A DNA stretch of 64,000 bases from a virus. The DNA lies in IMG/VR virus record IMGVR_UViG_3300027754_000060, positions 33,086 to 97,085 of that record; one strand, written 5' to 3'. Position numbers and translations under genes: made by a program. Shown piece after piece: positions 38,595 through 56,003 of the stretch. The notes beneath the pieces were generated by a model. That model was not told the DNA's origin, did not search any database, and was given only the letters and a program-made list of their open reading frames with translations. How positions within the stretch are numbered: the first letter of the stretch is position 1; each line of letters starts with the position of its first letter.

Positions 38595-38621
38595 TTATAT
38601 CCCTAATTTTTTTTTATAGAT

Positions 38622-41600
38622 TTATATATCAAAGTTCATTGTTTCCGATGAGGATGGGTTAAGAGCCTTAAAATCTTGGAAAGCCTTTTTAATAGAAGAG
38701 GCTACAATATTTGCTATGTCTGGTTTTAACTGATTTAACACTGTGTCTCCATTGATTATAACGTTTATGTCATGTTTTCCTGTTATTTTGATCTCTGGTG
38801 GGATATTTAAAGAGGCCAATGTTGTTGCTATTTTATCTAGTCTAGAGACGAAATTATCTATACTAGATACTGATCCTTGACTACTATCAGATACACCGGA
38901 CGACTTGGGAGATAAACTTTTTAATGTGTCCAGACCTGTTTTAAGCATATCTTTAAAAGTGTTCATAAATGACGTAAAATCAAAAGCTTGACTAGAACCT
39001 TGACTAGGACCTTGACCAGTAGCTGGGACACCGTTGTTAGTGCCATTAAGATAATATCTGGGTACTGATAATCCACCCCTACTTAGATTTCTTACTATGT
39101 CTCCATGACTATATGTTCCACTGTTGATAGCTTTTAATACTGGTAGGTTTTGTTGTGTTGATTGACGATTAACAACAAATTCACCCGGCGTTAGCATAGC
39201 TGGTACAGTGTCTGTGCCTCTTGGCTGAAAATTTATATGACTGCCCTTGCTAGCATAAACAGTTCCTCCTAACGATAGTTGCTGAGCTCCATGTCTACTA
39301 TTCCCTGTGTTAGTTGTCGCCAATAATGTTGACGAGTCGCTGCTAATGCCCTTGCTCTCATTAGCTGCAAATTGGTTGGCTCCTTCATCTCCTGGAAAGC
39401 TTCCTCCCATGCTCCTAATGTCGGTCATGGTGCTATATATCTGATCTTGCTTCGAGGTATACTCTTTTGATCCCATAGCAAGCTGGTCTCTTTGTTCTAT
39501 TTGCTGCTTCAGGACTACTCTGTATGCTTGTCTTTTGTGCAATCTCTCAAATTCAGCATCTAGCTTCTTTTGCCTAGCTGCGTTCTCACTCCGAAGACTC
39601 CATACCTGGGTCTGAACTTTGTAGGGCTCACTTGCTGCTCCAAGTATTGCTCCAGCTGCTAATCCAAGACCCCCAGGAACAATATCATTTCCAATCAGAG
39701 CTCCGCGAGCTGTTGCTTCTAAAGCAGCTACCATTTCATCTTCATTTTCTGATAATGGTCTTCCTATCGCATAGCTCACTGATCCATTCGTGTAAGCTCC
39801 TCCAGAGCTAGCACTACCACTTATAACTCCAAGAACAATCCTGGTGGCTGGGTCCATACCCTGTGCTATCGCTTTTTCATCCATATATCCATCATAAGCG
39901 CCCTGAAGCATCTCTAAATAAGCGGCTCCTTTCTCTGAAACTCCCCCTAAAAATTTCTTTCCTAGAGGACCGCCCCTTAATAACTTAATAGCATCAACAA
40001 AATTAGCTGTGTCAGCTGCCAACTTTACTGCGTCCAATGATTTTGCAGCCATATTTGTTGCCGCCGAGCTATCCTCTCCAGTTTGAGCAGATTCTCCTAG
40101 ATATAGGCCATATGCACCAGTAATCATATCTACCGCACTGGCTAGCGCGTCAAACCCAGGTACATATTTTTCTAGATAATCAAGCGTCATTGGTTTAAGT
40201 AGTCCGTCTTTCATTTTTAACAACAGGGGTTCAAGAGCTGTCTTTGCTAATCCAGAAGCTGTCTCCAAGGCTGCTACTATTCCTCCCCCGTTATAATATC
40301 CTACAGATCCGCCCTTTTGATATCTTCCAGCTCCACTATTAATGCTTTTTAACAAAGGTAAATTTTGCTGAGTAGATGCTCTGTTAACAACAAATTCGCC
40401 TGGTGTTAGCATAGCGGGCACAGTATCTGTTCCCTTTGGTTCAAAGTTTATATGTTGGCCCTTGCTAGCATAAACCATCCCTCCTCTATTAATTAGCTGA
40501 GGTAGTTCTTTTCCTTTCTCGACCTTTTGCTCTGTTCCGTAATCTTTCTGATTCTCGGGTAACAGACCAGTCATACCAGCTATTATTTTTTCCTTACCCC
40601 AAAGTAAACCATAATTATTCCCCGTCCAACGAGCACTCTGTTCTTGGGGCAAGAAATCCTTCAGATAATCTAACATGGTTTTTATGGCATCTTCATTTCC
40701 CACAGCCAGGCTGGGATCTTCCTCCTGTAAAGCTGCAATATTGTCTTTAAGACTCTTGACGGCATCGTCAGTTACTTTGCCATATACCCCAGAGGTATTT
40801 AATATCGTATCCCTAGCCTCATAATAATTTCTTAATGCTGACCCCTCCTTTAGTATCTCTTTAATCTCAAGAGTCCCAGGGTCCCTGTCATTAAAAACAC
40901 GCAGACCATTCTCATCTATACGATTATTATAGTCATTTTCAATAATCCTCATCAGGGCTATTCTATCGAATGGATTGTAAAATATACTTTCAGGACTATA
41001 CGCAAGACCAATCATATCATTTATTGACCTTGCTTTAGGATCTTCCACCCTGGTCTTCTTTACAATATTTCCATTCTCATCTTTATCTAATTTATAAAAA
41101 ATTCCCCTATCTAAGGCCATTTCTGAGGCAGCAGCATCCTCATCAGATAATTTATAATTAGTTTTATTTAATAACTTAGTTTCTACTTCCCTATTTATTA
41201 AATCTCCTAGATTGCCATCGCCGGTCCAATTATGCCAATACTTAGTAGTCATTTCACCTAATCGAATTTTAGAAGGTTCCTCTTCTTTAACGGAAAAAGC
41301 ATTATCATCTGTGCTAAGACCTAGACCATTATAGTATTGTAGCAATCTCTGTAATTGAGCTTCCCCCTTATATAAATCTGTAAAACCAGCTCTATAAGCA
41401 TCTTTTCTTAAGTAAGCAGCAGATTTTTTATCAGTAATGTTTGTCATGTCATCATTAAGAGGACTAAGCACTGACAAAATATCTTCTACGCTTTGAATAT
41501 TAGCTCCTCCGAGCAGCTGCTGATCTTGTACGCCTTGATTGTACAGAGCTCTTGCAATAGTTACTCGTTTAGCATCAGTAAATTTAAACTGCTGACTTTC

Positions 41601-44600
41601 CACCTCTTTTGGAGTGAGAGACTGATCGACTTGGTTATAATTAGTTATAGATGCCTGTTTCTTCGCTTTTTCTATCCGTGCTTTTCTAGAGTCTTCAAAT
41701 GCTTTAGCTTGGAAAGTAAACGGTACCGGCTTATAACTACCGTCCTCACTAGTGACTATAGAGTTCTTAGCTTGTGGAGTTTTTGAAAATAGATTTTTCG
41801 ATAAATCATTTGCCTTCAGATCATCCTCTGTGGCCATTTTGTGAGTTTGCAAGTTATACTGAAATGGAACGCCAAGAGCGGGATCTTCCATTCCAGTCTG
41901 AGCATTATAAACGGGAGTATGGATTTGTAATTCATCTAATAACTCCTTAATGCTTGGATAGACTATCGGATCTCCTGTTAATGGATATTCAATAAATGGA
42001 TTGGAACTATTTACATCTTTTGTTGCTGCCAATCCTTCTGCTACTATATACGACTTTTTATCTTTTCCCCAACTCCTATTGGTGTTATTCCATACTGGGC
42101 TTTCAACTTCTTTATAACCAAATTGAAATTGACCCTGATGATATTCTTTTTGTTGCACTTTAAATATATCAGCTACTTCTGCTCCTGGTTTAAATCCCTC
42201 AAGGGATTTGTCACCCTCCTCTGAGAGATACTGGTTAGCTCTGTCCGATAGCCACCGATAAGTTTGCTCTTTTCCCGTGATATTTGAGTCGGTATCATGC
42301 TCGAACAGAGAGATACCCCGTGGAGGTGGACCTGCTTCATGATAATAAGTACCTGGACCATCTGGCTCCTCGCCTTTATCAAGATATTTTTGTTTTAGTT
42401 TGGTCTCAATATCAGCCCATTTAACGGCCTTGTTAGAGGTTGGTCCCAGAAGAGTTATGGGAAAAGCTGAACCCTCAAACCCCAAGGTATCAAGATTAGC
42501 AAAATCTTTCTCTGAGATTTTTACTTCAGGTATTTTCTCATCATAGAACTCGTCTAGGGCAGTTAGATTTCTCTTGACCCGTATAGATTCGCCAGACTCT
42601 TTATAATTTGCAGATTTTAACTGCTTGACTTCCTCATACTGCTTACTAACGTTATTAAAATAGTCCTTTTGATTGGTTATGAAATCGTCTTTTACATTTG
42701 CAAGAACGATTTCATTCGTTTTTGCTTGATTATCTATATTCCATAAGATTTCTCCTCCTGTATTTACGATTCCGATATTATGAGGAGTTGCTGTATTGCT
42801 CAAGTTTTTTGGACTCAAGTTGTCTTCGTAGAATGTTGCGAATTTCATGCCTGGTGTTTTTGCAGCTAATCCCTTTGCTAAAACCATATTATTACCAAGT
42901 ACACTTAGCATTCCCAGCGGGTTGAAATTATCAGGAGACTGCTTGTAATACTTTAGAGTGGCATCCATAGTTTCATTCTGAGTTTTTAATATGTCTTCTA
43001 TTGTCGGCTCTTTTCTATGTGGATCATATGAATTTGCCCAACTAATTATCTTCTCCATATTTTTCATATATTCTGGCCGATTTTTTTCACTCAGAGGCAC
43101 TCTAGACTTCTCATCACTAATAGTAGCTAATTTCAAATCGCCCATCGATTTCGGACCAAGTATTTTTCCTACAGATTTCTGAGCTGATAGTTTAGTTCCA
43201 TCGCCAACATCTTGGTCTATTTTATTATTGAACTCCCTCACATTGTCATATCCATAACCAGCTGTTGCTTTTACGCCGTCTTGAGTCTTGAGTGCCAAAG
43301 GATTATTTGTCGTTTCCCTTATCAAAGGATTTACAGTAGAAGACGAGTCAATGCTTGTTCTTGCACTCGCTGTCGGGCCAGTAGCGACCCACTGAGCATC
43401 TCCTATTTGAAGAGTTTTTCCGCTGGTATCAGCAATAACACTAGCTGCCGCCTTTTGCACATCCTCATATTTAGGAAAGGGACTTGTAGTCTCTCTAATT
43501 CTTTTGTTCCTATCTAACACATCGGACTTCAAGGCGCTATAATTTTCTATTGCCCCCTCATCAGGAGGTTTACCTTCGAGAGCTGCTACTACTCCTCCCC
43601 TGTCATAATATCCTACAGATCCGCCCTTTTGATATCTTCCAGCTCCACTATTAATGCTTTTTAACAAAGGTAAATTTTGCTGAGTAGCTGATCTATTAAC
43701 AACAAATTCGCCCGGTGTTAGCATAGCAGGTACAGTATCTGTTCCTTTGGGCTGAAAATTAATATGCCTGCCCTCGCTAGCATAAACCATGCCCCCAGAA
43801 GACAAACCACCAGCTCCCTTGTTCTTTTTTACTTCTGCGATAAGATCCTGAATACCCTTATTAATATCATCCAGTTTTTTATCATTATAGCTAATTGCAA
43901 CATCTGTAGTAGCACTACTAAGTTTTATAGCAGCTGTTTCTGCTGTTTGCTCAGCCATAAGCTTGCTTATATTTCCTAATTCTTTATTAGCCTCCGATTG
44001 TAAAGTATTCCCGAGATTATAAGCATCTTGAGCAGCTGTCATTTGAGGATCGTCTTCTGGATTCCTTAAGCTATCCAAGACCTGTTGCATCATAGGATCA
44101 ACACCTATGCCAGCTTCTGATAACTGGCTCTCTAAAACATTCGCTTTTAGCTCCGATTGTTTTTTGCCATTTCCAAGCAAAGGAGCAATAGAATTAAAAT
44201 CTTGTAAACTTTGACTTCTTTGTTCAGATGTTGTTCCTACATTAGCTACGCCTTTCATATTATTATTTAATCTTAACATGCTAGAATTAAATTTTGCTAT
44301 ACCTTCTTGATCTGAAGTTACCAGTCTTTCTATTAAATTTTCTCCAGATTTGCGTTGTTCTTTGATCTCAGACATTCTTGCTAGAGCAGCACTAGCAATA
44401 TCTGTATTTTCAGCCATATCTTTTAGAGCATCATAATTTTCTTTAAGAGCAACATTTGTAGCATTTAGTCTAGTCCTCATCATCTTGTATTCTTCTATTC
44501 CTCCCTGTCCTTTTTCTCTAACCAATGAATCACTAGATTTTTGTTGCTGTTCTCTCGTATCATTTAATCTTCTTACTGATTCTCCAATAGCTGTTGGATC

Positions 44601-47600: not shown

Positions 47601-50600
47601 AGGAGCTGATCCTAGTTCTTGCAGCCTGTCTGCTACAACCTCACCACTAGCATTAGCATTGTCCAAATACTTAGCGCTAACTCTTCCTGGTTTAACCGTT
47701 AATCCTATTTTTTCATCTTTTCTAATCTTTTTCGCTTCTGCTGCTTCTGCTACTCCGCCCACAGCAAATCTTCGAGCTTGTGCCATACCCCCTGCCATAA
47801 ATCCCGATGGTCCAACAGGGCCCATCATTCTGGTGGCCTTATCTGCATGGTCTAGTACAAACTCCCTTTTATGATTTGCAGAGTTTCGAGCAAATTGACT
47901 CATTCCTCCTTCTTTACCAACATTATATTTCTGTAATTCATTATTTAGAACATCCATATAGTATATTCTAAGATCTGACAAGATATCGCTATTATCTCGT
48001 ATATAAAAGTCTAACTCTTCAGGAGCATCAGTAAACCATTTTCCTCTAGCTGCTTTGGGACTAGAGCTTGTAGCACTCTCGCCCATCAGCCGTTCCTTTT
48101 TTTCAGGAGTCATTTCTGTTCCCATATACCTCACTGTTTTTGGAGTAATATGATCCCTTGGAACATCTCCAACTCGATAAAGTCTAGTCTGCCCCTCGTC
48201 TGCTGGTTTTAGTTTTGATTTTAAATCTAGGAATTGTTTAAAAAAAACATCGGATTCTGATGGAGGCTTGGGAATATTGCTAATAGAAGGTTTTGGAGGG
48301 GGAGGGGGAGGTGGAGGCATAATAGGAGACCCCGGCCTATTAACTGCTGCTACTACTGGTTTTCGTGGTGGAGGTGGGGGAGGAGGTGGAGGAGGTGGAG
48401 GAGGGGCATGGAGAACCATTGATCCTGCTGCATATCGCTGAACTTTTGCTGCTCCACCAATAGCGAACTTTTTGGATGGTGGTGGAGGTGGTGGAAGTGG
48501 AGGACCGAGTTTTTTAGGTGCGGGTGGTGGAAGCGACGGACCAAGTTTTTTAGGTGCGGGTGGTGGAAGTGGCGGACCGAGTTTTTTAGGCGGAGGTGGA
48601 GGCATAGTAGGAGAACCCGGTTTATTAACTGCTGCTACTTTATTATCATAATTTTGCGTTGGCAATGAAGAAGAATTTCTTTGATAAAAAGCTGCAAGAT
48701 CATGCAAATATTTTTGTCTTTGTGGTACACTAGCACTACTTAGAAAACCATTAGCAGCAAATGCAGCGCTTCGTAATTTAGATTCTTCTGCGTCAAGACT
48801 TGTGCCCTTAAATTTTCTTCCACTGTTAACCCAATTAGGGTCTGTTATTGGTATCCTGGCAGATGGAGGTACAGCTTCCCCTCCTGCTGCATATCCCCTT
48901 GTTGCTCTGTTAACTGATACCATATCTTCAGCTAGCGATGGTGTTGGAGTATAAGCAGCATCTGAAGGCCCCTTTAATTTTGCTGCTAAAGCTAATTGAG
49001 CAGGAGTAGATGTCTTCCCCGGTTCTTTCAAAGATCCTAATAGTGCCTTAGAATCAATTTTCATTCCAGCCTTAGATTTTTTTTGCTCAATTATTTTTGC
49101 AAGATATGTTTTAAATTCTGGGATAGTATATCCCATAGTATCTCCATACTTTTTAGCTTGGTCAAACTCAAAATCTTTTAGACCCGTACCCTTTTGGAGA
49201 TCATATACTTCTCCACCAAGAGCAAGATGTAGACCATATTTCTCAGGATCTTGTTCTGCTAATTTACGCATAAGAGTAAAAGGTTCAAAGCCAGCGTGAC
49301 TTTGTATTTTCTTTTTACGTTCTCTAAGAGCATCAACCTGGTCTCCCATCATTTTATATGCTGGATCTTTTTCCATCTGCTTTCTATCCAGTCTGGCTGG
49401 AAAATTAGCTAGTTCTGCATCAATATCTGCAAGAGATAAGTCCTTTCTCGACTTAACCCCCGCCATAATTTCAGGCAATACTTTTTCTCGATTTTGTAGT
49501 TGAGTTAGATTCTTTTGCACTATATCAAATACAGCAGGAGACAAGAATTTTCTCATAGCTGGAATATCACCACTCAATATAGCTGCTCTAGTTGCTGTTC
49601 CACTTATCTCGTCTTCTCCTCCCTCAGCAGTAGTTCTCTTGCCCATTGGGGCTATCCTATATCCTTTGTCCTTATATTTCTGAAGCTGTTGCTCACTTTT
49701 TTCCGGTCCGGCCATATATACACTACTAGAATAGTCAGGACGAACAAAATGCCTTCTACCATCCTCGCCAGGCTTTCCCTCAAAAATATCAGGCATCCCA
49801 AAATCCTGATTTGCTTTATTAACTATAGATTTACTAAAAGCTGCCTTAGCTAATATCGTTCTAAAATCTTGATCAAAATTAACAGTTCTAAAATCATGAG
49901 CATCAGGATCTTTTGCTGTTATTGCTTCATTACTGCCCACCAAAACTGCAAAGTCTTCTTCGCTGAATCCAAGAGCTTTTGCCGCATCCAAGATAGACTC
50001 ATGACCCAGTGTGGTTGGAGCAAAACCCCCTTTTATTACTGCTAATGATTTTGTTTCTGCTGTTGGTCCTTGTAGTCTTTCTCCTTTTTCGTTCTTTAGC
50101 TTAAAACCCCCAACATCAACACCCATAGTCCTTAACTTTTTCGGATCTATCTCAGAAGCTAGCATCCCTTGCATTGATCCACTATCAGTAGGGGCTCCAG
50201 CAGTAGTTCCTGGACTTCTACCAAAAAGAGTATCCTTAAGAGGATCTTTGTTAGCATCTCTTGAACCCCTTCTTCTTTTGATCTCATCCCTTTGTTCTTT
50301 TGTTGAAGATTCTAAACTATATACTTTGTCTGCTGATGTTAAATATCCACTCAGTTTTTCTGGTGTTACAGTAGCAGAAACATCTACAATTTGTGAAACT
50401 GAAGCTATGTCTTCTGGAGTTAAAATAGCACTTCTTGTTGTTTTTCTTAAACTAGCATTATCTGCCTCCGATGATTTAGAACCCCCCAACATAAGAGAAC
50501 TTTTACCCGATCCTGCTACTCCCACTATAGCACTGAGACGATCTAATGATCCCTCTCCTCTAGCAGTAGCAGCTAATTTAGACAGATGCATTTTGTAATC

Positions 50601-53600
50601 AGACACTTTCTTCATGCCCAACTTACTCATCTCTGCACCAACGACAGCTGAATTTTCTGGATTTGCTAAAACATCACTATCTATATATCCAATATTTCTT
50701 TGAGCAGTAGCCTCAGATTTTTGAGTATTATTTTTAGCACCCACAGATGCGCCCACAGATGCGGCCACAGCCTTTTTTACAGAAACCTTAGTTGCTGCTC
50801 CTCCTCCAGGAACCTTAGTTGCTGCTCCTCCTCCAGAACCTTTTGTTCCAAAGACCCCGTCTCTATTTTCTAGAAAACTTAAAACCTCTGCCCTATACTT
50901 ACTTATTGAGGCACTATCTATTGTTCTTTTAACATCTGTGGGAATATTATCTTCCATTCCAAAGAATTGAGCAGCAGGCCCCAACCCGGATGGAAAGTCT
51001 ATAGACATCGCTCCCTTTGTAGCAGCTTTAGCTCCTAGTTGTGTTAAAATCTGTTGTATAGTATATCCTTCCATTTCTGCTTTGCCTGTTATCGCAAGAT
51101 CTTCTTGAGACATAGGAGTAACAGGAGTCAGATAATGAGCAGTTTTATTAGCTTTCCTAGCTGCTAAAATATTCTGTAAATTATCATCTATTAAATCTTC
51201 ATCATATCCTAAGTTTTTTGCTTTAGCTTGTGCTACGTCATCTCCTGTCATTCCAGGAGTTGATACTCCAGTTACTCTATCAGCACCGATTGGAATACCT
51301 AATCTAGTAAGCGTAGAAGCAATTAAATCAGCTGATGCTTGAGGTCTTGCTGATAATACTCTTATCTTTTTTATAAAGTTTGGATCCTTGTCTAATATTT
51401 CTTTTAGATGAGTTCCTATGGGGGATTTTAATTTAGCGTTTTGTAATGCTTTAGAAACTGCTACCAGATCAGAATATGCTGCAATGTCTGGTTGCCCCTT
51501 ATCATTAAATATGTCTGCTCCACTAACTAGTGTCTCATCAAAATCAATAGCTAAATTTTTTCCAGATCCTAAGAATTCTTCAGCTTGTATAGATTCGGCC
51601 ATATTTTTTGTTGAAGAAGCATTTACTCCCTCCATCTGTTTTTGCAAACTAGCACTCGTCTTTTCAGAAAGTATTCCTATTTTAGTATAAATAGATTTTC
51701 CATTAATCATCTCTGGACCAATAGACATATGTTTGGTTTTTCCTATTAATCCGACTAATCCAAAAATCTCAGATCCAGCGATTGCTTTTTGAGCTATAGC
51801 CTCTTCATCTGCAAAACTTTCAATCACAAGACGGTTCATAAGATCATCGTGCTTATTGGGCACTCTTGATACAAAATCTTTGTCTCTTATGCCTGTACCA
51901 TCTAATCTGCCTTCGTTAACTAATCTTCTATACATATCTCTAAGTGGAATCTTAGCTTCTCCCATTTTTGCCTTAGCTACTCCACCAATACCAAGTTGTT
52001 GAATATCCATTGAATAGAATGGATCATGATCAACGTCATATGATGGATCAGTCCAAGGAACAGCCATAGACATATTTGCAGAATTATAATTAGCAGAAGC
52101 TTTTAAGATTTTTAATGATGATGATCTAGGAAGAATAACTTCTTGTTCTGCTCTTTGCGTTTCTTGAATTCTTTGCTTATGAGGTTCAGCAAGCATCTTT
52201 TCTGGAAGAGCAGCATTAACATCAATACCAGTAGCATCCTTTTTAGTTTTGATATCTAAAAATCCTCGTTGACTAAAATTCATGCCAATTGTTTTTGCTT
52301 TTGAAGTTGATAAAAACCCAGGAAGAGCAAAAGTACTACCAGCGGCACTATCAACATCTTTCTGTGATCTTAATTGATTTCCAATTTGTTTTTTAATAAT
52401 ATCTAATCTAGTTTCTCCAATACCAGTATAAACATTGTCTGGAACTTTAGTTTTTGGTGAAGAATCTAGCTTTTTAATAGTTTCTTTAATGCTCTCCATA
52501 TAAGCTTTATCAGACTCAGAAACTTGCCCCGGTGGACCATAACCCAGATTTCCATCATCTGGATAGGCTAAATGAGTATTAATATCACGAGACCTATTTT
52601 GATAGGTTGCTATAGCATCAACAGGATAAACCGCACCTGCGTCTTTGAATTTTTGAATCCTTCCACCCGCTTTTAATCCCAAAGAATTTTTATAGGCTTC
52701 GTCTATTTCTATGAGAATAGCGTCCCCAGCGTTAACACTAGGATCAAGATCAATCTTATTGGTAAAACCGACCTCCGCAGGCGATTGCTGCTGTGTTTCC
52801 ATCAAATATCTTAATTTTTTAGCATACATAGTCTCATCAGAAGTTCTCTCGTCTCTAAATCTAGTTTCTATCGGAGTTGCAGCAACTGCTGTAAAATCCA
52901 TTGGATCATATTGACCCCCTGTTTTTGAATATCCTGGATATCCCATAATTGGCAGGTATTCGCCCATGAAATCTTCAAATGCAAAACCTTTGCTGAGTTG
53001 ATACTTCTTCTCGTGTCTCTTATCTGTAAAGTTTGTCGCTTGCGCCGCTTGTCTGATATCTGTTGCAAAATCTTGGTTTATAGTCTCTTTGTTTGCATAA
53101 AACTTGTCTATGTCTGTTTTGTCTATCGTGATACGCTGAATATTTCCCTTTACGATATCTTCATTTTGTATATTTGGATCTTCTGAATAATTCTTGTCTG
53201 TAAGGTAACTGCCACTTTTTGCCTGCTTAATCTCTTCTATTTTTTTGCCCTGATTAGCATAGACAGGTGCCACTCCTCCTCTAGCAAATTTTCTAACAAA
53301 ACCCCCACCAGCTAATTGAACGGTTCCTTTATCCCACGTTCTACCAGTTGTATAGTCCTTATCCATAGTAAATCCCTTTGCGAGATATCTACCAAATCCT
53401 CCGCTTTGTGTCTTTACTACATTATCAACTGTAAAGTCCTTTAATTGACCCTCTAGCTCGTTCTTACCCAGTTCAGCTATTTGGCCCGCTGTTGCTCCTT
53501 CAAAAACTTTCTCGTTTCTTGGAATTTTATATCCCGATGCTGTCTCTGGATATTTTTCTGGTCTATTATTTAGCTTCTGTATATTTTGGGCTTTAGATTG

Positions 53601-55928
53601 TGATACAAAACTATCTTTCTTGATCTCATATGTATCAAAATCATTAACTCTAAAGTTTGCTTTAAATTCTTTTCCATCTGGGATAACAGTAGCTGAAAAT
53701 GTATCTCCGTCTGATGCTACTGCTGTATCTTTTACAACTTTGCTAATTCCTACTGTATTTGCTAGACCTCCACCAGCAAACTTTTGAATCCTGCCTCCAC
53801 CAGCATATCCTTGAATACTTCCACCCCTATTCTTATTCATCTTATGCAAGTTACTAGCACCCAGAGTTTCCACAGCTTTTTTACGAATAACAAATTCCCC
53901 CGGTTCTAACATTGCTGGCACAGTATCTCCATTACCTTGACCAGGTACTACTCCTCCTCTGGCAAATTTTCTAACAAAACCCCCACTATTTAATCCAGTA
54001 CCAGGTGGAAATTGAAGATTGTCTATAATACTAGATAATCTATCTATGCTTGCTGTATTTGTAGACAAAGAAACAGTATTACTCTCAAGAGCAATAATAT
54101 AACTATTTATAGCAGTCATACCATATGTTAAAGAAACAATATTATTTGATAAAGTATCTATAGCAGAAGTTAAAGTTCCCATAGCTGCTGAAGAAGCGAT
54201 TATATTAGATGACAGAGAACTAACATTATTTGATAAAGCATCTATAGCAGCAGTTAAGGCGCTATTATCTACTGAAGAACCACTGCCACCAGTAACTAAT
54301 CCACTCAGCCTATTTCCCATATTTCTAACTGCTGATGATCTACCACTAGAATCATCTTCACCCGATCCTTTGTCTGATTTTTTTCCTAATCCTCCAACAA
54401 ATCCACTACCAAACTCAACCATCGCAGACATTCCCTTACTAACTGCTAGAATAGCTAAGATAGGAAGAAGACCCTTGAGACTACCTGCTACAGTTATTAA
54501 AGCACTAGCAAATCCTAAAGCTGTTTTAGCAAGAGTTTGAAATGTGTTACTGGATCCTACAGTTCTCACCAAGGATAAAAATTCTTCTCTAACTTTCATC
54601 ATTTGATTAGCTAATGATAACTGTGCAATACCAGCATCTTTAGCTAATGATCCCTGACCCTGTTGAGCTATTTTTAAAGCATCTTGAGCTGTTGCAAATT
54701 CATGAATCAAAGGAATAACTTTACCAATTTGACGAAATCCACCAAGCTGTTCCACAATCTCACTAAATTTTAAATCTCTAGGATCAATGCTACCTAGTCC
54801 TTCGCTTAAAAGTTGTATAGCTTTGTATGCTCCAACAAACTTACCTTCATTATCTGTTAATACAACTCCAAATTCCTTTAGAGCATCTATAGTATCTCTT
54901 CTTTGTATTCTTGTAAAAATAGTTCTTAAACCCGTAGCAATAGTTTCAGCGCTTTCTCTAGTTGTTGCTCTAACACTAGTAAATACTGCGATAAATTCAT
55001 TTAAAGCGTCCGACCCCTCACTAACTCCTTTGCTAGCTGAAGCAAATACTCCTCCAGTCCTTTGAATAGCTGTAATAATATCACTTGCTTCAACAGCAAA
55101 AGCAGCAGACACAGCATTAATAGATCCTAGAGCACTTTCCAGATCTCCCGCACCAATTTGAAACTGTTTCATTAAAGCAATAGATCCCTCTACAGTTTCA
55201 TTCATACTATCAAAACTTGGAGCAAGATCAGTAAGGGCCAAAGCTCGTAATGCTCTTTCAGTATCCTTGGCGCTTAAACCAGCTTGAGCAAGAGTTCCAG
55301 CCACGCCAATTAATTCAGTAGAAGCTACTCCTAATGTTGTGGACAATGTTGTAATTTCTGACGACAAAGATCCTAACTCTTGTCCATTTTTTCCAGTAAC
55401 TTGTTGAAGCTTAACTAGTTCTTTGTCAAACTGAACAAATGTTGCTAGGCCACTTTTAAGAGCATTAGTAACGCTAAAGATAATAGTAGTAACAGCTGAA
55501 AAAGCAGCAAATCTTTTAACAGCTAGAGCGGATTGTCTACCAAACTCTTCGATCTGAGTACTAGATGCCGAGATTTTTTGAGCAGTATTAGTTTGAGCTT
55601 TTGCTAAATTATTCGACGCTGTTGCTGCAGAATTTAAAGCACTAGAGGTAGAAGCCGATGCTTTATTTGCAGCTCCCATAGCTCCAATAAATGACTTAAT
55701 AGCTCTTTCAGCATCAGTAGCATTGGTTTTTGTTATAGCTAGAGTATTGTTGAGGGTTTGTAGAGCAGAAGTTAACTGGGTCGCATTTCTTATTGACGAT
55801 GCATCGACCTGTATTTTAATATCGCCAGTAATAGTACCAAGTTGTCTTTTTATATCAGATACTATATTTCCAATATTAGAGGGGCCCCTAAGATTTAACT
55901 GTGCAGTTAGATTAAATGCTTGTGCCAT
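38622..55928 (-). CDS. Giant tail tape measure protein (TP901/PhageMin_Tail-type N-terminus) with multiple inserted enzymatic domains
   Basis: 'FDKELVKLQQVTG...LAQAGLS...AVEASDIITAIQRTG...RESAETIATGLRTIFTRI' TMP core; position after tube and chaperone genes; 5768 aa. Confidence 0.9.
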   Translation of the reverse strand: MAQAFNLTAQLNLRGPSNIGNIVSDIKRQLGTITGDIKIQVDASSIRNATQLTSALQTLNNTLAITKTNATDAERAIKSFIGAMGAANKASASTSSALNSAATASNNLAKAQTNTAQKISASSTQIEEFGRQSALAVKRFAAFSAVTTIIFSVTNALKSGLATFVQFDKELVKLQQVTGKNGQELGSLSSEITTLSTTLGVASTELIGVAGTLAQAGLSAKDTERALRALALTDLAPSFDSMNETVEGSIALMKQFQIGAGDLESALGSINAVSAAFAVEASDIITAIQRTGGVFASASKGVSEGSDALNEFIAVFTSVRATTRESAETIATGLRTIFTRIQRRDTIDALKEFGVVLTDNEGKFVGAYKAIQLLSEGLGSIDPRDLKFSEIVEQLGGFRQIGKVIPLIHEFATAQDALKIAQQGQGSLAKDAGIAQLSLANQMMKVREEFLSLVRTVGSSNTFQTLAKTALGFASALITVAGSLKGLLPILAILAVSKGMSAMVEFGSGFVGGLGKKSDKGSGEDDSSGRSSAVRNMGNRLSGLVTGGSGSSVDNSALTAAIDALSNNVSSLSSNIIASSAAMGTLTSAIDTLSNNIVSLTYGMTAINSYIIALESNTVSLSTNTASIDRLSSIIDNLQFPPGTGLNSGGFVRKFARGGVVPGQGNGDTVPAMLEPGEFVIRKKAVETLGASNLHKMNKNRGGSIQGYAGGGRIQKFAGGGLANTVGISKVVKDTAVASDGDTFSATVIPDGKEFKANFRVNDFDTYEIKKDSFVSQSKAQNIQKLNNRPEKYPETASGYKIPRNEKVFEGATAGQIAELGKNELEGQLKDFTVDNVVKTQSGGFGRYLAKGFTMDKDYTTGRTWDKGTVQLAGGGFVRKFARGGVAPVYANQGKKIEEIKQAKSGSYLTDKNYSEDPNIQNEDIVKGNIQRITIDKTDIDKFYANKETINQDFATDIRQAAQATNFTDKRHEKKYQLSKGFAFEDFMGEYLPIMGYPGYSKTGGQYDPMDFTAVAATPIETRFRDERTSDETMYAKKLRYLMETQQQSPAEVGFTNKIDLDPSVNAGDAILIEIDEAYKNSLGLKAGGRIQKFKDAGAVYPVDAIATYQNRSRDINTHLAYPDDGNLGYGPPGQVSESDKAYMESIKETIKKLDSSPKTKVPDNVYTGIGETRLDIIKKQIGNQLRSQKDVDSAAGSTFALPGFLSTSKAKTIGMNFSQRGFLDIKTKKDATGIDVNAALPEKMLAEPHKQRIQETQRAEQEVILPRSSSLKILKASANYNSANMSMAVPWTDPSYDVDHDPFYSMDIQQLGIGGVAKAKMGEAKIPLRDMYRRLVNEGRLDGTGIRDKDFVSRVPNKHDDLMNRLVIESFADEEAIAQKAIAGSEIFGLVGLIGKTKHMSIGPEMINGKSIYTKIGILSEKTSASLQKQMEGVNASSTKNMAESIQAEEFLGSGKNLAIDFDETLVSGADIFNDKGQPDIAAYSDLVAVSKALQNAKLKSPIGTHLKEILDKDPNFIKKIRVLSARPQASADLIASTLTRLGIPIGADRVTGVSTPGMTGDDVAQAKAKNLGYDEDLIDDNLQNILAARKANKTAHYLTPVTPMSQEDLAITGKAEMEGYTIQQILTQLGAKAATKGAMSIDFPSGLGPAAQFFGMEDNIPTDVKRTIDSASISKYRAEVLSFLENRDGVFGTKGSGGGAATKVPGGGAATKVSVKKAVAASVGASVGAKNNTQKSEATAQRNIGYIDSDVLANPENSAVVGAEMSKLGMKKVSDYKMHLSKLAATARGEGSLDRLSAIVGVAGSGKSSLMLGGSKSSEADNASLRKTTRSAILTPEDIASVSQIVDVSATVTPEKLSGYLTSADKVYSLESSTKEQRDEIKRRRGSRDANKDPLKDTLFGRSPGTTAGAPTDSGSMQGMLASEIDPKKLRTMGVDVGGFKLKNEKGERLQGPTAETKSLAVIKGGFAPTTLGHESILDAAKALGFSEEDFAVLVGSNEAITAKDPDAHDFRTVNFDQDFRTILAKAAFSKSIVNKANQDFGMPDIFEGKPGEDGRRHFVRPDYSSSVYMAGPEKSEQQLQKYKDKGYRIAPMGKRTTAEGGEDEISGTATRAAILSGDIPAMRKFLSPAVFDIVQKNLTQLQNREKVLPEIMAGVKSRKDLSLADIDAELANFPARLDRKQMEKDPAYKMMGDQVDALRERKKKIQSHAGFEPFTLMRKLAEQDPEKYGLHLALGGEVYDLQKGTGLKDFEFDQAKKYGDTMGYTIPEFKTYLAKIIEQKKSKAGMKIDSKALLGSLKEPGKTSTPAQLALAAKLKGPSDAAYTPTPSLAEDMVSVNRATRGYAAGGEAVPPSARIPITDPNWVNSGRKFKGTSLDAEESKLRSAAFAANGFLSSASVPQRQKYLHDLAAFYQRNSSSLPTQNYDNKVAAVNKPGSPTMPPPPPKKLGPPLPPPAPKKLGPSLPPPAPKKLGPPLPPPPPPSKKFAIGGAAKVQRYAAGSMVLHAPPPPPPPPPPPPPRKPVVAAVNRPGSPIMPPPPPPPPKPSISNIPKPPSESDVFFKQFLDLKSKLKPADEGQTRLYRVGDVPRDHITPKTVRYMGTEMTPEKKERLMGESATSSSPKAARGKWFTDAPEELDFYIRDNSDILSDLRIYYMDVLNNELQKYNVGKEGGMSQFARNSANHKREFVLDHADKATRMMGPVGPSGFMAGGMAQARRFAVGGVAEAAEAKKIRKDEKIGLTVKPGRVSAKYLDNANASGEVVADRLQELGSAPLFSVQSSSATSGYGPKLYDAVMEGVTESGNQLVSDRHSVSSSAYNVWKYYFKNRGDVNKTPLAPENWYHGSKWFDQTKFPSEDPKTWPPHSDEAWVLQTGYTKSPSDIKNPNLVERFAMGGATSDTVPALLTPGEFVINKKAAESIGYNKLEKMNHADKAQGFAKGGSVGNVQGFASGGYVQRFITGGTANADTLKAVAELGRQAGLTADQMKLNIQQSILERAHRIKADSATAINTNVKGEALLAATRLGPGQKAAAIAGGADTAEAYQKDVDDTRKKLTDTLTTAAGSKAEDPKNAAKIADQVNEMMSAAENNKSMEDVFQTTGFKEMVGYMTSDMAAYDKAIQEMSTQTGLSADSLKTLGVSARDIRIDRSMKQMSDAVQATSAKMIKYSSLVAVLGDNLGSFISGGPEAGRGSKVAGAAISAGASAGTGAFTAIRTGMDTAAKGLTEMSKMPGVMGSAAQKLLPMLANPYVAAGAIAVAAAVGIAAAFMAAHNAAKAFDKALQTKNLETSLEKASEALNDFAKDNTDIGALNKAKSQLGTAGDAAKGLINLDVQVPDAMWVNLFDALGSGNTKQASERSQILQKEGTMGYLKSSSYYGLNPYADDYRQKKMKEYAPEQAKKNAATFSPVKEGIFKVFEAELRNGEKTVDEVFGELKNSSGGVSTFAESIARANPAIEEELLLLEQQKGLKDEEKNKIREGIIAREAEKRTVLSVNAVKRQMAIEDLDKAARTFGLNVDRMLKNMDGAINKTSFELDALSSSLSLSNDALSGNAKSGATSLDSINILKNQGAYSEKDNERARGQAGAFFGADSENIKGLLKVPDKLQDTVLSSVNKTLKKNPSASNESLSSNITMDLDKALKDLNLPPELADKLARETGVAFKDFKGKGGEDSSISYDELTENVGAFSKTISSAERAQDMANRALEFWQKNLNEYSESMNQAAGYQVESNSRMRKASDIKIRADNELNKTLGNSPSMNSQIKITQDSFKARTTGATSDPTAIGESVRRLNDTREQQQKSSDSLVREKGQGGIEEYKMMRTRLNATNVALKENYDALKDMAENTDIASAALARMSEIKEQRKSGENLIERLVTSDQEGIAKFNSSMLRLNNNMKGVANVGTTSEQRSQSLQDFNSIAPLLGNGKKQSELKANVLESQLSEAGIGVDPMMQQVLDSLRNPEDDPQMTAAQDAYNLGNTLQSEANKELGNISKLMAEQTAETAAIKLSSATTDVAISYNDKKLDDINKGIQDLIAEVKKNKGAGGLSSGGMVYASEGRHINFQPKGTDTVPAMLTPGEFVVNRSATQQNLPLLKSINSGAGRYQKGGSVGYYDRGGVVAALEGKPPDEGAIENYSALKSDVLDRNKRIRETTSPFPKYEDVQKAAASVIADTSGKTLQIGDAQWVATGPTASARTSIDSSSTVNPLIRETTNNPLALKTQDGVKATAGYGYDNVREFNNKIDQDVGDGTKLSAQKSVGKILGPKSMGDLKLATISDEKSRVPLSEKNRPEYMKNMEKIISWANSYDPHRKEPTIEDILKTQNETMDATLKYYKQSPDNFNPLGMLSVLGNNMVLAKGLAAKTPGMKFATFYEDNLSPKNLSNTATPHNIGIVNTGGEILWNIDNQAKTNEIVLANVKDDFITNQKDYFNNVSKQYEEVKQLKSANYKESGESIRVKRNLTALDEFYDEKIPEVKISEKDFANLDTLGFEGSAFPITLLGPTSNKAVKWADIETKLKQKYLDKGEEPDGPGTYYHEAGPPPRGISLFEHDTDSNITGKEQTYRWLSDRANQYLSEEGDKSLEGFKPGAEVADIFKVQQKEYHQGQFQFGYKEVESPVWNNTNRSWGKDKKSYIVAEGLAATKDVNSSNPFIEYPLTGDPIVYPSIKELLDELQIHTPVYNAQTGMEDPALGVPFQYNLQTHKMATEDDLKANDLSKNLFSKTPQAKNSIVTSEDGSYKPVPFTFQAKAFEDSRKARIEKAKKQASITNYNQVDQSLTPKEVESQQFKFTDAKRVTIARALYNQGVQDQQLLGGANIQSVEDILSVLSPLNDDMTNITDKKSAAYLRKDAYRAGFTDLYKGEAQLQRLLQYYNGLGLSTDDNAFSVKEEEPSKIRLGEMTTKYWHNWTGDGNLGDLINREVETKLLNKTNYKLSDEDAAASEMALDRGIFYKLDKDENGNIVKKTRVEDPKARSINDMIGLAYSPESIFYNPFDRIALMRIIENDYNNRIDENGLRVFNDRDPGTLEIKEILKEGSALRNYYEARDTILNTSGVYGKVTDDAVKSLKDNIAALQEEDPSLAVGNEDAIKTMLDYLKDFLPQEQSARWTGNNYGLLWGKEKIIAGMTGLLPENQKDYGTEQKVEKGKELPQLINRGGMVYASKGQHINFEPKGTDTVPAMLTPGEFVVNRASTQQNLPLLKSINSGAGRYQKGGSVGYYNGGGIVAALETASGLAKTALEPLLLKMKDGLLKPMTLDYLEKYVPGFDALASAVDMITGAYGLYLGESAQTGEDSSAATNMAAKSLDAVKLAADTANFVDAIKLLRGGPLGKKFLGGVSEKGAAYLEMLQGAYDGYMDEKAIAQGMDPATRIVLGVISGSASSGGAYTNGSVSYAIGRPLSENEDEMVAALEATARGALIGNDIVPGGLGLAAGAILGAASEPYKVQTQVWSLRSENAARQKKLDAEFERLHKRQAYRVVLKQQIEQRDQLAMGSKEYTSKQDQIYSTMTDIRSMGGSFPGDEGANQFAANESKGISSDSSTLLATTNTGNSRHGAQQLSLGGTVYASKGSHINFQPRGTDTVPAMLTPGEFVVNRQSTQQNLPVLKAINSGTYSHGDIVRNLSRGGLSVPRYYLNGTNNGVPATGQGPSQGSSQAFDFTSFMNTFKDMLKTGLDTLKSLSPKSSGVSDSSQGSVSSIDNFVSRLDKIATTLASLNIPPEIKITGKHDINVIINGDTVLNQLKPDIANIVASSIKKAFQDFKALNPSSSETMNFDI
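40293..40375. repeat. 83-bp perfect direct repeat, copy B
   Basis: Identical to 43605-43687; a third, diverged copy of the block lies at about 39120-39260. Confidence 0.95.
43605..43687. repeat. 83-bp perfect direct repeat, copy A (within a ~190-bp similar block)
   Basis: ataatatcctacagatccgcc...aaattttgctgagtag is identical to 40293-40375. Confidence 0.95.
47410..47710 (-). other. TMP cassette: GNAT acetyltransferase-like domain
   Basis: ATSGYGPKLYD...LVSD..SVSSSAYNVW. Confidence 0.6.
47845..48200 (-). other. TMP cassette: second, ART-PolyVal-like ADP-ribosyltransferase domain
   Basis: RLYR...GKWFTD...FY...IYYMDV...REFVL. Confidence 0.6.
48295..48640 (-). repeat. Pro-rich repeats in TMP: 3 x 36-nt KKLGP(P/S)LPPP(A/P)P units, poly-Pro, and duplicated VAAVN(K/R)PGSPxMPPPPP
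   Basis: Visible in both DNA and translation. Confidence 0.85.
49530..50050 (-). other. TMP cassette: HIGH-class nucleotidyltransferase (NMNAT/PPAT/cytidylyltransferase-like)
   Basis: GGFAPTTLGH and ISGTATR motifs. Confidence 0.8.
50250..50545 (-). other. TMP cassette: P-loop kinase domain
   Basis: AIVGVAGSGKSS Walker A; IVD strand; RRRGSR lid-like motif. Confidence 0.7.
51150..51560 (-). other. TMP cassette: HAD-superfamily phosphatase domain
   Basis: DFDET (motif I), LSAR (II), K (III), IDDN..N (IV). Confidence 0.8.
52095..52630 (-). other. TMP cassette: VIP2/C3/Alt-like ADP-ribosyltransferase domain
   Basis: Y....INxxL, VYTG (canonical VYRG), GFLSTS, EQEVILPR. Confidence 0.8.
52700..53010 (-). 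other. TMP cassette: PD-(D/E)xK-like nuclease domain
   Basis: KGFAFE...DPMDF...IETR (K replaced by R). Confidence 0.5.
53370..53745 (-). other. TMP cassette: thermonuclease (SNase)-like domain
   Basis: SDGDTF...FRVNDFDTYE...GGFGRYLA corresponds to DGDT / R..gid.pE / yGR.La. Confidence 0.65.
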
Positions 55929-55953
55929 AAGCTATGCTCTATTCTAAATGGTT

Positions 55954-56003
55954 AATAAAAGACACTCCCCACCTAGAAAAGATCTTCTAAATGGGGTAGT
56001 ATC
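55954..56003 (-). terminator. Intrinsic terminator/attenuator-like hairpin immediately upstream of the TMP gene
   Basis: - strand GATACT-A-CCCCATTTAGAA-(GATCTT)-TTCTAGGTGGGG-AGTGTC-TTTTATT: an 18-bp stem with 3 G-U pairs followed by a U-rich tract. Confidence 0.7.

What the first reader, a model, noticed from the sequence alone, without database searches (positions are those of the whole stretch)
38622..55928. Tape measure protein as a polyvalent effector-delivery polyprotein
Seen: a 5768-aa ORF with a TP901-type TMP core (aa ~1-640) and a second helical/membrane segment (aa ~2965-4040). Between them are about 2300 aa of globular cassettes, in order: SNase-like, PD-(D/E)xK-like, ART, HAD phosphatase, second PD-(D/E)xK-like remnant, P-loop kinase, HIGH nucleotidyltransferase, Pro-rich spacer, second ART, GNAT. 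Two further cassettes of unknown function follow near the C-terminus. Known: TMPs are ejected into the host ahead of or with the DNA, and these enzyme classes are typical of phage 'polyvalent' and MuF-fused proteins; enzymatic additions to TMPs are usually peptidoglycan hydrolases. Inference: this phage uses the tail lumen protein as a magazine that delivers host-takeover or anti-defence enzymes before any phage transcription. At ~0.15 nm per residue the whole chain would imply an ~860-nm tail, so much of it is probably cargo rather than ruler.
Basis: partly seen in the sequence, partly recalled or inferred. Interest (0 to 1): 0.93.

Follow-up and report, generated by a model that had tools for sequence, protein, structure and literature searches.

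The report
Giant enzyme-carrying phage tape measure protein
The tail "ruler" protein of this uncultured lake phage is a real 5,768-residue giant that carries a string of swappable enzyme-like domains between conserved ruler segments and contains no cysteine at all, so the tail probably delivers ready-made enzymes into the host with the DNA, though delivery itself is untested.

Summary
Window 38622-55928 (-) is one 5,768-aa ORF with a TP901-type tape measure core. Five copies of a ~75-aa DTVPAMLTPGEFV module cut it into sections.

Cassettes:
- Confirmed: first ADP-ribosyltransferase (Pfam), HIGH-type nucleotidyltransferase (profile hits), GNAT-like fold (three structure searches).
- Motif level only: HAD phosphatase, P-loop.
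- Weak but consistent fold hints: SNase-like and first PD-(D/E)xK-like.
- Not supported: second ART.
- Not tested: second PD-(D/E)xK remnant.

At least 282 giant relatives (3,400-7,700 aa) exist in metagenomes. They keep the ruler parts and vary the cassettes.

Added here:
- Independent lake metagenomes hold strains that lack whole cassettes, with the joints at the modules or linkers.
- The protein has 0 cysteines, against 1.56% in its neighbours. 103 of 121 family members also have none, as do lambda gpH and the RNA-polymerase-carrying P23-45 tape measure.

Delivery of the cassettes into the host is the best reading (about 0.55) but rests on inference. An ~860-nm tail is not excluded, because P23-45 has 5,002 aa and an 800-nm tail.

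This scan has already reported such cassette-built tape measures on other DNA. In the paper library searched I found only the single-enzyme P23-45 case.

The parts
38622..55928 (-). Whole tape measure ORF, 5,768 aa, no cysteine
53994..55928 (-). TP901-type tape measure core, aa 1-645, with hydrophobic stretches at aa 135-153 and 470-504
   Evidence: TIGR01760 E 2e-23; PF10145; present in 116-119 of 120 relatives; hydropathy
53763..53996 (-). Junction module 1 (DTVPAMLEPGEFV), aa 645-722
53304..53765 (-). SNase-like cassette, aa 722-875. Motifs DGDT, FRV..DTYE and GRYLA; fold unproven
52629..53297 (-). PD-(D/E)xK-like cassette, aa 878-1100. Conserved E...D...ExK/R pattern
51954..52616 (-). ADP-ribosyltransferase cassette 1, aa ~1105-1325. 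STS and ExE present; Arg of the first strand replaced by Thr
   Evidence: PF03496 E 2e-9; A7
50829..51611 (-). HAD-type phosphatase-like cassette, aa ~1440-1700. Motifs DFDxT, (S/T)AR, K and DD
   Evidence: A3: D83 F84 D85 T87 and D202 D203 invariant, K190 nearly invariant, in 18 sequences; no Pfam or PDB hit; in 68-98 of 120 relatives
50049..50720 (-). P-loop NTPase cassette, aa ~1737-1960 (Walker A GVAGSGKS)
   Evidence: A15; generic AAA and P-loop hits only
48909..50051 (-). HIGH-type (cytidylyltransferase-like) nucleotidyltransferase cassette, aa ~1960-2340. Motifs GGFAPTTxGH and ISGTxxR
   Evidence: 3gmi 9e-6, NMNAT 1.3e-3, NaMNAT 2.7e-3; PF16581 in 19 of 24 homologues and PF01467 in 9 of 24
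48129..48521 (-). Proline-rich spacer, aa ~2470-2600, with short DNA repeats
47793..48131 (-). Proposed second ART, aa ~2600-2712: not supported
   Evidence: pLDDT below 50 and helical; Atlas no hit; homologue in only 2 of 120 relatives
47274..47723 (-). GNAT-like acyltransferase-fold cassette, aa ~2736-2885
   Evidence: 1,920 representative proteins at E<=1e-3, giant and free-standing
47040..47276 (-). Junction module 2, aa 2885-2963
43815..47042 (-). Second conserved ruler/membrane segment, aa 2963-4038, with a hydrophobic stretch at 3242-3269
43569..43817 (-). Junction module 3, aa 4038-4120
40503..43571 (-). Unknown ~1,020-aa block, aa 4120-5142, with no internal linker. The C-terminal two thirds are shared with 20-48 of 120 relatives
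40263..40505 (-). Junction module 4, aa 5142-5222
39288..40265 (-). Variable Gly/Ala-rich section, aa 5222-5547. Absent from related strains in two other lake metagenomes (1,215-nt in-frame skip)
39054..39290 (-). Junction module 5, aa 5547-5625
38625..39056 (-). Conserved C-terminal end, aa 5625-5768. By position it corresponds to the tail-tip end of lambda gpH
   Evidence: inference from PMC10721106

Best explanation
This is the genuine tape measure protein of an uncultured freshwater long-tailed phage.

It has a conserved scaffold: the TP901 core, a second helical/hydrophobic segment and a C-terminal tip end. Five copies of a very conserved junction module, which lambda gpH carries once, interrupt this scaffold, together with about 17 short [FY]xxGG linkers. 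Between the junctions sit globular cassettes that related phages gain, lose and reorder.

Inferred mechanism. The whole cysteine-free chain is built into the tail lumen and leaves the tail tip first, ahead of the DNA. The cassettes are an ART, a P-loop plus HIGH nucleotidyltransferase pair, a HAD-like phosphatase, a GNAT-like acyltransferase, and probable nucleases. Their cofactors (NAD+, NTPs, acyl-CoA) exist only in cytoplasm. They would therefore act in the newly infected cell before any phage gene is expressed, either still tethered to the channel-forming scaffold or after cutting at the junctions.

Shown: the architecture, several fold and family assignments, cassette variability and the absence of cysteine. 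Inferred: presence of the cassettes in the virion, ejection, refolding, activity and cutting.
For: - Tape measure identity.
- Family: at least 282 giant tape measures of 3,172-10,094 aa, with the core, the modules, aa 3240-4130 and the C-terminus conserved and the cassettes variable.
- Cassette order differs between relatives, for example kinase-NTase before HAD in many loci.
- [FY]xxGG occurs 17 times against 2.6 expected. 34% of homology breakpoints lie within 25 aa of a linker, against 10.8 +/- 0.7% for random points.
- Contigs from other lake studies join 39186 to 40402 (1,215 nt, 405 codons, inside the module repeat) and 47257 to 48562 (net 1,296 nt), and skip 52631 to 53767, which runs from one linker to the next.
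- Catalytic-type motifs are kept: HAD motifs I-IV (I and IV invariant); TxGH and ISGT; STS and ExE.
- Cysteine: 0 in 5,768 aa, against 223 in 14,309 aa (1.56%) in 25 neighbouring ORFs. About 90 would be expected, so the chance of none is about e^-90. 103 of 121 family members have none. Lambda gpH has 0 of 853 and P23-45 gp96, which carries a proven virion RNA polymerase, has 0 of 5,002 (PMC10770324).
- The HAD and kinase-NTase cassettes have no free-standing relatives in 5.8 billion clusters apart from fragments, so they have evolved within tape measures.
Against: - There is no virion proteome, no image and no host, so delivery is inference.
- Folded 20-30 kDa domains, in three to six copies, do not obviously fit a ~4-nm tail lumen or pass its exit. 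They would have to be stored and ejected unfolded.
- ART 1 lacks the canonical Arg in this protein and in its four aligned relatives, so it may be inactive or atypical.
- Two AlphaFold models were mostly of low confidence, with mean pLDDT 48.
- SNase, PD-(D/E)xK and HAD lack significant fold or profile matches.
- P23-45 shows that a 5,000-aa tape measure can go with an 800-nm tail, so great length alone does not prove cargo.
- No protease domain was detected in the protein.
Confidence: 0.55

Rival explanations
1. Pure ruler. The whole chain sets the length of an extremely long tail (about 800-900 nm). The globular inserts are spacers, or decayed passengers with no role after ejection.
For: P23-45 has a 5,002-aa tape measure and an 800-nm tail (10.1101/2022.12.01.518664), about 0.16 nm per residue with its enzyme domain included. 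ART 1 lacks its Arg. Several cassettes give no significant family match.
Against: HAD motifs I-IV and the TxGH/ISGT motifs are invariant or nearly so across homologues that are 30-47% identical. That is purifying selection on catalytic-type residues, not on length. Co-occurring strains differ by 378-432-codon cassettes, which would change tail length by about 60 nm each. Cassette order is shuffled among relatives.
Confidence: 0.15
2. Polyprotein for the producer cell. The cassettes are cut off at the linkers during or before tail assembly. They then act in the cell that makes the phage, or are discarded, and only the scaffold is packed.
For: Lambda gpH and T5 pb2 are cleaved during assembly (PMC12617516). 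The junction module matches lambda gpH aa 725-795, just after its presumed cleavage zone. The linkers are 6.5 times over-represented.
Against: Enzymes that stay in the cytoplasm have no reason to lose every cysteine, yet the cassette region (2,168 aa) has none where about 34 would be expected. In lambda both cleavage products stay in the virion. No protease domain was found.
Confidence: 0.2
3. Assembly artefact. The ORF is a chimera of several phages joined at the repeated modules.
For: Logan contigs of the probable source sample break at the module repeats, and no single independent contig spans the whole ORF. Related phages that share the N-terminal core co-occur, as the common loose end at 54947 shows.
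Against: All pieces in run X1 match with 0 differences and even depth of 11.5-15.1. A 17.9-kb contig from a different study bridges 40402-48566, crossing modules 3 and 2. More than 280 independent giant relatives have the same layout. The frame stays open for 17.3 kb.
Confidence: 0.03

Closest known systems
Thermus phage P23-45 gp96, a 5,002-aa tape measure with an N-terminal virion RNA polymerase (PMC10770324)
   Same: Both are giant tape measures that carry a cytoplasm-acting enzyme as part of the same chain. Both have no cysteine at all. The enzyme is proposed to act at the entry channel as the DNA comes in.
   Different: P23-45 has one enzyme at the N-terminus; this protein has at least five to eight cassettes in the middle. 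P23-45 has no DTVPAMLTPGEFV module (hmmsearch found none). It has a different core family. Its activity and virion location are shown by experiment; here they are not.
Phage lambda tape measure gpH, matured to gpH* plus gpHC (PMC12617516, PMC10721106)
   Same: A profile of 480 module copies matches gpH aa 725-795 (18.2 bits, E 8e-8 against that one sequence). This lies inside the unresolved N-terminal part of gpHC, next to the glycine-rich cleavage zone. gpH has no cysteine. The C-terminal helix sits at the tail tip.
   Different: Lambda has one module, 853 aa and no enzyme domain. A 5-copy profile of this protein's modules did not reach any PDB chain. Cutting at the modules of the giant proteins is untested.
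Polyvalent proteins of phages and conjugative elements (Iyer et al. 2017, PMC5512222)
   Same: The concept is the same: many unrelated effector-type domains (ART, GNAT, nucleases, nucleotide enzymes) on one polypeptide, thought to enter with the DNA.
   Different: Those proteins are built around MuF, zincin-like peptidase, ArdC-N, helicase or methylase domains. None of these was detected here. The paper never mentions tape measures. Here the carrier is the tail ruler, and the delimiters are the module and [FY]xxGG linkers.
Tape measures with cell-wall hydrolase domains (T5 pb2, mycobacteriophage tape measures; cited in PMC12617516)
   Same: Both have an enzymatic domain embedded in a tape measure and released on ejection.
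   Different: Those enzymes act on peptidoglycan in the periplasm. The cassettes here need NAD+, NTPs or acyl-CoA, so they would act in the cytoplasm. No lysin domain was found.

Membership tests
TP901-family phage tail tape measure protein (TIGR01760 / PF10145) | Match to the core-region model above the curated cut-off | tested here: met
   TIGR01760 82.9 bits against a cut-off of 28.8; PF10145 75.6 bits against 33.2
TP901-family phage tail tape measure protein (TIGR01760 / PF10145) | Position in a tail gene module, with tail-tip and fibre genes downstream | tested here: inconclusive
   Downstream ORFs carry fn3, FGE-sulfatase and tail-fibre-like PHROG hits. The upstream ORFs have no family match.
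Polyvalent proteins (Iyer et al. 2017) | Several unrelated effector-type domains on one chain of a mobile element | tested here: met
   ART, HIGH NTase, GNAT-like fold and HAD motifs
Polyvalent proteins (Iyer et al. 2017) | Hallmark anchor or processing domains (MuF, zincin-like metallopeptidase, ArdC-N, SNF2 or DNA methylase) | tested here: not met
   No such Pfam or NCBIfam hit at E<=0.1 over the whole protein
ADP-ribosyltransferase, exoenzyme/VIP2 type (PF03496) | Profile match above the curated cut-off | tested here: met
   37.4 bits against 23.4, aa 1142-1283
ADP-ribosyltransferase, exoenzyme/VIP2 type (PF03496) | R-S-E catalytic set (Arg in the first strand, STS, ExE) | tested here: not met
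   STS and ExE are present, but the Arg position is T here and A, T or S in four relatives
HAD-superfamily phosphatase | Motifs I (DxDxT), II (S/T), III (K) and IV (DD) in order | tested here: met
   D83 F84 D85 T87 and D202 D203 are invariant and K190 is at least 90% conserved in 18 sequences. Motif II is read from S/T before the invariant A148 R149.
HAD-superfamily phosphatase | Rossmannoid HAD fold or a profile match to a known HAD family | tested here: inconclusive
   None of the 18 members hits Pfam. The best PDB profile hit to a HAD is E 0.14. hhalign against T4 Pnkp matches motif IV only.
HIGH-signature nucleotidyltransferase (PF01467; HIGH_NTase1 with PF16581) | (H/T)xGH and ISxT motifs, and a profile match | tested here: met
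   P235 T237 H240 and I372 S373 T375 R378 are invariant, with G239 nearly so. 3gmi 9e-6, NMNAT 9x6f 1.3e-3, NaMNAT 5llt 2.7e-3. PF16581 in 19 of 24 homologues and PF01467 in 9 of 24, at a loose limit of E 0.1; best E 1e-5 and 0.001. The window's own copy alone is below threshold.
P-loop kinase | Walker A plus kinase-specific lid and catalytic residues or a kinase family match | tested here: inconclusive
   Walker A is conserved. Only generic AAA, PhoH and STAND hits appear. T4 Pnkp matches at Walker A only.
GNAT acyltransferase fold | GNAT beta-alpha core fold | tested here: met
GNAT acyltransferase fold | Acyl-CoA binding motif (Q/R)xxGx(G/A) and a Pfam GNAT match | tested here: inconclusive
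   The conserved ATxGYGP stretch resembles the motif but lacks Q/R. No PDB sequence hit. No GNAT Pfam hit for the window protein or for 10 free-standing relatives.
Staphylococcal-nuclease (SNase) fold | OB-like SNase fold with D, R, D-T-x-E and R residues | tested here: inconclusive
PD-(D/E)xK nuclease fold | Restriction-endonuclease-like alpha/beta core with E...D...(D/E)xK | tested here: inconclusive
Second ADP-ribosyltransferase (aa ~2600-2712) | ART fold or profile match | tested here: inconclusive
   The model has pLDDT below 50 and is mostly helical. Atlas gave no usable hit. No Pfam hit. There was no alignment depth, as only 2 of 120 relatives carry it.

The most novel reading that the evidence does not exclude
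A large, unrecognised family of freshwater phages uses the tape measure as a protein-injection magazine. It is a cysteine-free polyprotein stored in the tail lumen. Its repeated lambda-type junction modules and [FY]xxGG linkers serve as recombination points for cassette exchange and as cutting or hinge sites. Its widely kept P-loop / HIGH-nucleotidyltransferase / HAD set, private to these tape measures, pre-empts a host defence before any phage gene is expressed. Candidate activities are rebuilding NAD+ or another nucleotide cofactor, or repairing cleaved RNA.
Probability: 0.3. Interest if true: 0.9.

Novelty: new variant of a known kind. Interest (0 to 1): 0.78.

Why it matters
How phages win the first minutes of infection, before they can express anything, is an open question now that so many abortive and NAD+- or nucleotide-depleting defences are known.

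Known pre-made weapons travel in the head (T4 Alt, internal proteins, MuF-linked polyvalent proteins). One case is a single RNA polymerase on the P23-45 tape measure.

A family of hundreds of tape measures that each carry a different, recombining set of enzymes would make the tail lumen a second, general delivery route. It would also offer a catalogue of candidate counter-defence enzymes already sorted by natural cassette borders.

The absence of cysteine gives a simple sequence test for which domains travel with the tape measure.

Tried and rejected
Searches that found nothing or very little:
- Megablast of the ORF against 50,697 phage records: no match.
- tblastn of the core: only 26-29% matches to SPbeta-type tape measures.
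- The search for related loci with the single N-terminal sequence: nothing.
- phmmer of aa 721-2960 against PDB: nothing.
- 5-copy module profile against PDB: no tape measure chain.
- HAD and GNAT profiles against PDB: nothing significant.
- hhalign of the kinase and HAD alignments against T4 Pnkp: only Walker A and motif IV.
- PADLOC: nothing.
- ESM Atlas for aa 4125-5140: best score 0.76, to a viral hypothetical cluster. For the proposed second ART: no hit.
- Terminase family search in the 97-kb record: none, but the record is only 67% complete.

Searches that left a question open:
- The genome-contig scan with the core alignment found only two short MAG contigs, labelled Alphaproteobacteria and Chitinophagia. 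One relative is labelled Sphingobacteriia. The host stays unknown.
- The viral-contig scan for the SNase cassette gave one locus, from a contig already held. The PD-(D/E)xK alignment was too variable to scan with.

Analyses discarded or blocked:
- Aligning the cassette region with whole giant proteins gave a misaligned 11,417-column alignment, which I discarded.
- Single-linkage clustering of linker-cut segments collapsed into one component, so it gave no cassette census.
The closest relatives (P0002-P0008) therefore could not be used by sub-range, which kept the alignments for AlphaFold shallow.
Full report
WHAT IS THERE

The window is part of a 97-kb linear IMG/VR virus record that is estimated 67% complete. 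On the minus strand, 38622-55928 is a single open frame of 5,768 codons. Its first 645 residues are a TP901-family tape measure core:
- TIGR01760, aa 152-480, 82.9 bits against a cut-off of 28.8;
- PF10145, aa 191-384, E 6e-21;
- several PHROG tape measure families.

Genes downstream on the same strand carry fn3, FGE-sulfatase-type and tail-fibre-like domains. No cultured phage record is similar at DNA level. The closest cultured cores are SPbeta-type tape measures at 26-29% identity.

ARCHITECTURE

A ~75-aa module centred on DTVPAMLTPGEFV occurs five times: aa 645-722, 2885-2963, 4038-4120, 5142-5222 and 5547-5625.

Short [FY]xxGG linkers occur 17 times, where composition predicts 2.6.

Hydrophobic, membrane-like stretches lie at aa 135-153, 470-504 and 3242-3269.

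The enzyme-like cassettes therefore sit between the two main hydrophobic parts of the scaffold.

THE FAMILY

A word-seeded search restricted to 3,172-10,094 aa found at least 282 relatives.
- They come from ENA, JGI, Logan and NCBI assemblies, on contigs up to 241 kb.
- Many are named TP901-family tape measure by JGI.
- Among the 121 proteins analysed (this one plus the 120 listed relatives) the module occurs 1-8 times (two or more in all but one), 486 copies in all. 352 of these spell exactly DTVPAMLTPGEFV.

I mapped 120 relatives onto this protein.
- Conserved in 98-119 of 120: the core, the modules, aa 3240-4130 and the C-terminal end.
- Moderately common: the HAD-like block (68-98) and the P-loop/nucleotidyltransferase block (73).
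- Variable, as number of relatives out of 120:
  - aa 780-1380: 8-25;
  - aa 2340-2700: 0-3;
  - GNAT-like block: 28-42;
  - aa 4140-4440: 3-15;
  - aa 5220-5520: 2-20.

The same cassettes stand at different places and in different order in relatives. Homology breakpoints fall within 25 aa of a linker three times more often than random points do: 34% against 10.8 +/- 0.7%.

CASSETTE BY CASSETTE

1. ART 1.
   - PF03496, E 2e-9.
   - STS and ExE are conserved.
   - The first-strand Arg is Thr here and A, T or S in four relatives.

2. P-loop plus nucleotidyltransferase.
   - A 24-sequence alignment keeps the Walker A motif (K invariant, the glycines nearly so), together with GGFAPTTxGH and ISGTxxR.
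   - Its profile hits MJ0951 (3gmi) at 9e-6, an NMN adenylyltransferase (9x6f) at 1.3e-3 and a NaMN adenylyltransferase (5llt) at 2.7e-3.
   - 19 of 24 homologues match PF16581 and 9 match PF01467, at a loose limit of E 0.1; best E 1e-5 and 0.001.
   - The nucleotidyltransferase call is sound.
   - 'Kinase' for the P-loop part is not shown.

3. HAD.
   - DFDxT and the DD pair are invariant in 18 homologues of 29-47% identity. The lysine is conserved in at least 90% of them.
   - No member hits Pfam.
   - The PDB profile search is not significant.
   - The evidence is at motif level only.

4. GNAT.
   - AlphaFold gives pLDDT 60-84 for aa 2739-2884.
   - Foldseek against PDB lists almost only GNATs.
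   - BFVD gives E 6e-5 to ~200-aa phage proteins, some labelled NAT_SF.
   - An exhaustive profile search finds 1,920 representative proteins. The best ~60 are mostly large tape-measure-sized proteins. Many further hits are free-standing proteins of 110-560 aa. The ten small ones I scanned have no Pfam acetyltransferase match, and of the eight I looked up six carry no name and two only 'hypothetical protein'.

5. SNase-like and first PD-(D/E)xK-like.
   - The motif patterns are conserved in the few homologues.
   - The SNase part of the model has low confidence. The PD-(D/E)xK part is moderate.
   - Structure hits are thematically right: Tudor-SN, SNase and OB folds for one; FAN1, Hjc, alkaline exonuclease, CdiA-CT and restriction enzymes for the other.

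6. The proposed second ART is not supported.

7. aa 4120-5142 remains unknown.

The HAD and kinase/NTase blocks have no free-standing relatives of comparable size. The only hits are fragments on short contigs and one 951-aa tape measure fragment.

NEW EVIDENCE ON MODULARITY AND ASSEMBLY

Twenty freshwater or lake metagenome runs from 11 studies (2017-2025) hold parts of the gene. I laid contigs of four runs on 38000-56500.
- The probable source sample (X1) covers everything with 0 differences and even depth. It breaks at the module repeats and at a few other points, some of them polymorphic.
- A 17.9-kb contig from another study (X5, 2025) confirms the order 40402-48566. It joins 39186 directly to 40402. 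That is a 1,215-nt, 405-codon deletion whose ends lie inside the DTVPAMLTPGEFV-coding repeats of modules 5 and 4.
- Run X7 shows the same skip.
- X7 also joins 47257 to 48562 with 8 nt between (net 432 codons). This removes the Pro-rich spacer, the proposed second ART and the GNAT block, and ends at module 2. The support is thin: 38 nt on the shorter side of the joint, and laid at 90% likeness.
- X5 skips 52631 to 53767, that is aa 721-1099, from the linker after module 1 to the linker before ART 1.

Cassettes are therefore gained, lost or replaced at these junctions in nature. A chimeric assembly is unlikely.

ABSENCE OF CYSTEINE

| Protein or set | Cysteines | Residues |
|---|---|---|
| This tape measure | 0 | 5,768 |
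| 25 other ORFs of the window | 223 (1.56%) | 14,309 |
| Cassette region aa 722-2889 | 0 (about 34 expected) | 2,168 |
| Lambda gpH | 0 | 853 |
| P23-45 gp96 | 0 | 5,002 |

- At the neighbours' rate about 90 cysteines would be expected in the whole protein, so the chance of none is about e^-90.
- Of 121 family members, 103 have none, and the overall frequency is 5e-5.
- The N-terminal RNA polymerase of P23-45 gp96 is an experimentally shown virion enzyme (PMC10770324).

Enzymes that stayed in the cytoplasm would have no reason to lose every cysteine. A chain kept for long periods at very high local concentration in the tail lumen outside the cell would. So would a chain that must unfold and thread through a narrow exit and an oxidising periplasm. 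I take this as the strongest indirect sign that the cassettes share the fate of the scaffold.

THE JUNCTION MODULE

Following a lead from earlier notes of this scan, I built a profile of 480 module copies. It matches lambda gpH aa 725-795 at 18.2 bits, E 8e-8 against that single sequence. That stretch lies in the unresolved N-terminal part of gpHC, next to the glycine-rich zone where gpH is cut. The protease and the exact site are unknown (PMC12617516). Only residues 818-842 are resolved at the tail tip (PMC10721106). Cutting or hinging at the modules of the giant proteins is thus plausible but untested. P23-45 gp96 has no such module.

HOW IT MOST LIKELY WORKS

By analogy with lambda, the C-terminus sits at the tail tip and leaves first. 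The C-terminal 2,800 residues, including the hydrophobic stretch at 3242-3269, would form or line the trans-envelope channel. The cassettes would follow, and the core would come last, next to the DNA.

ART, nucleotidyltransferase, P-loop and GNAT-type domains need NAD+, NTPs and acyl-CoA. If they are active, they act in cytoplasm.

All of this paragraph is inference.

The rivals are:
- a pure ruler for an ~860-nm tail, which is possible because P23-45 pairs 5,002 aa with 800 nm;
- a polyprotein whose cassettes are removed before assembly;
- an assembly artefact.

They are weighed in the Rival explanations section.

COMPARISON AND NOVELTY

- Iyer et al. 2017 describe polyvalent proteins but never mention tape measures.
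- The P23-45 paper calls the enzyme-tape measure fusion 'a previously unsuspected association'.
- Full-text searches for multi-enzyme or giant tape measures returned nothing else relevant.
- This scan has already reported cassette-built giant tape measures on several other genomes, so the thing is recurrent.
- I class it as a new variant of a known kind: an enzyme-bearing tape measure or polyvalent protein.

Noticed in passing
window 24360-28025 and 28044-29264 (-): Two adjacent ORFs are unusually cysteine-rich (3.9% and 4.2%), in sharp contrast to the cysteine-free tape measure. An earlier first-reader note reports a repeated ~135-aa module with an FC-x4-C loop here.
   Followed up: no
window 7451-15607 and 15610-21993 (-): Two further very large ORFs (2,718 and 2,127 aa) lie downstream in the tail/fibre region. 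I did not examine them.
   Followed up: no
window 34905-38594 and 32464-34878 (-): The gene right after the tape measure has an FGE-sulfatase-type domain (PF03781, E 5e-12). The next gene has fn3 domains (E 1e-19). Both are probably tail-tip or fibre proteins.
   Followed up: partly
window 62005-63003 (-): A 332-aa ORF ends in a proprotein-convertase P-domain (PF01483, E 4e-9), which is unusual in a phage structural block.
   Followed up: no
window 56032-57292 (-): Two ORFs (107 and 329 aa) lie in the position of tail assembly chaperones and overlap by 53 nt. The second is in the +1 frame relative to the first and has its own ATG, and I saw no classical -1 slippery heptamer. It is an unusually long 'T-like' partner for a giant tape measure.
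   Followed up: partly
window ~54947: Contigs of three different lake runs (X1, X5, X7) leave the window sequence at the same place with the same 30-nt continuation. Co-occurring relatives therefore share the first ~327 codons of the tape measure nearly identically and then diverge.
   Followed up: no
relative P0017 (6,161 aa) and others: Some relatives carry cassettes that Pfam does recognise and that this protein lacks: SNase PF00565, EF-hands PF13202/PF00036 and SHD1 PF03983. The family's cassette repertoire is wider than what is seen here.
   Followed up: partly
L083, L084, L085 and other metagenome loci: In many relatives the P-loop/nucleotidyltransferase block comes before the HAD-like block. 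In this window the order is the reverse.
   Followed up: partly
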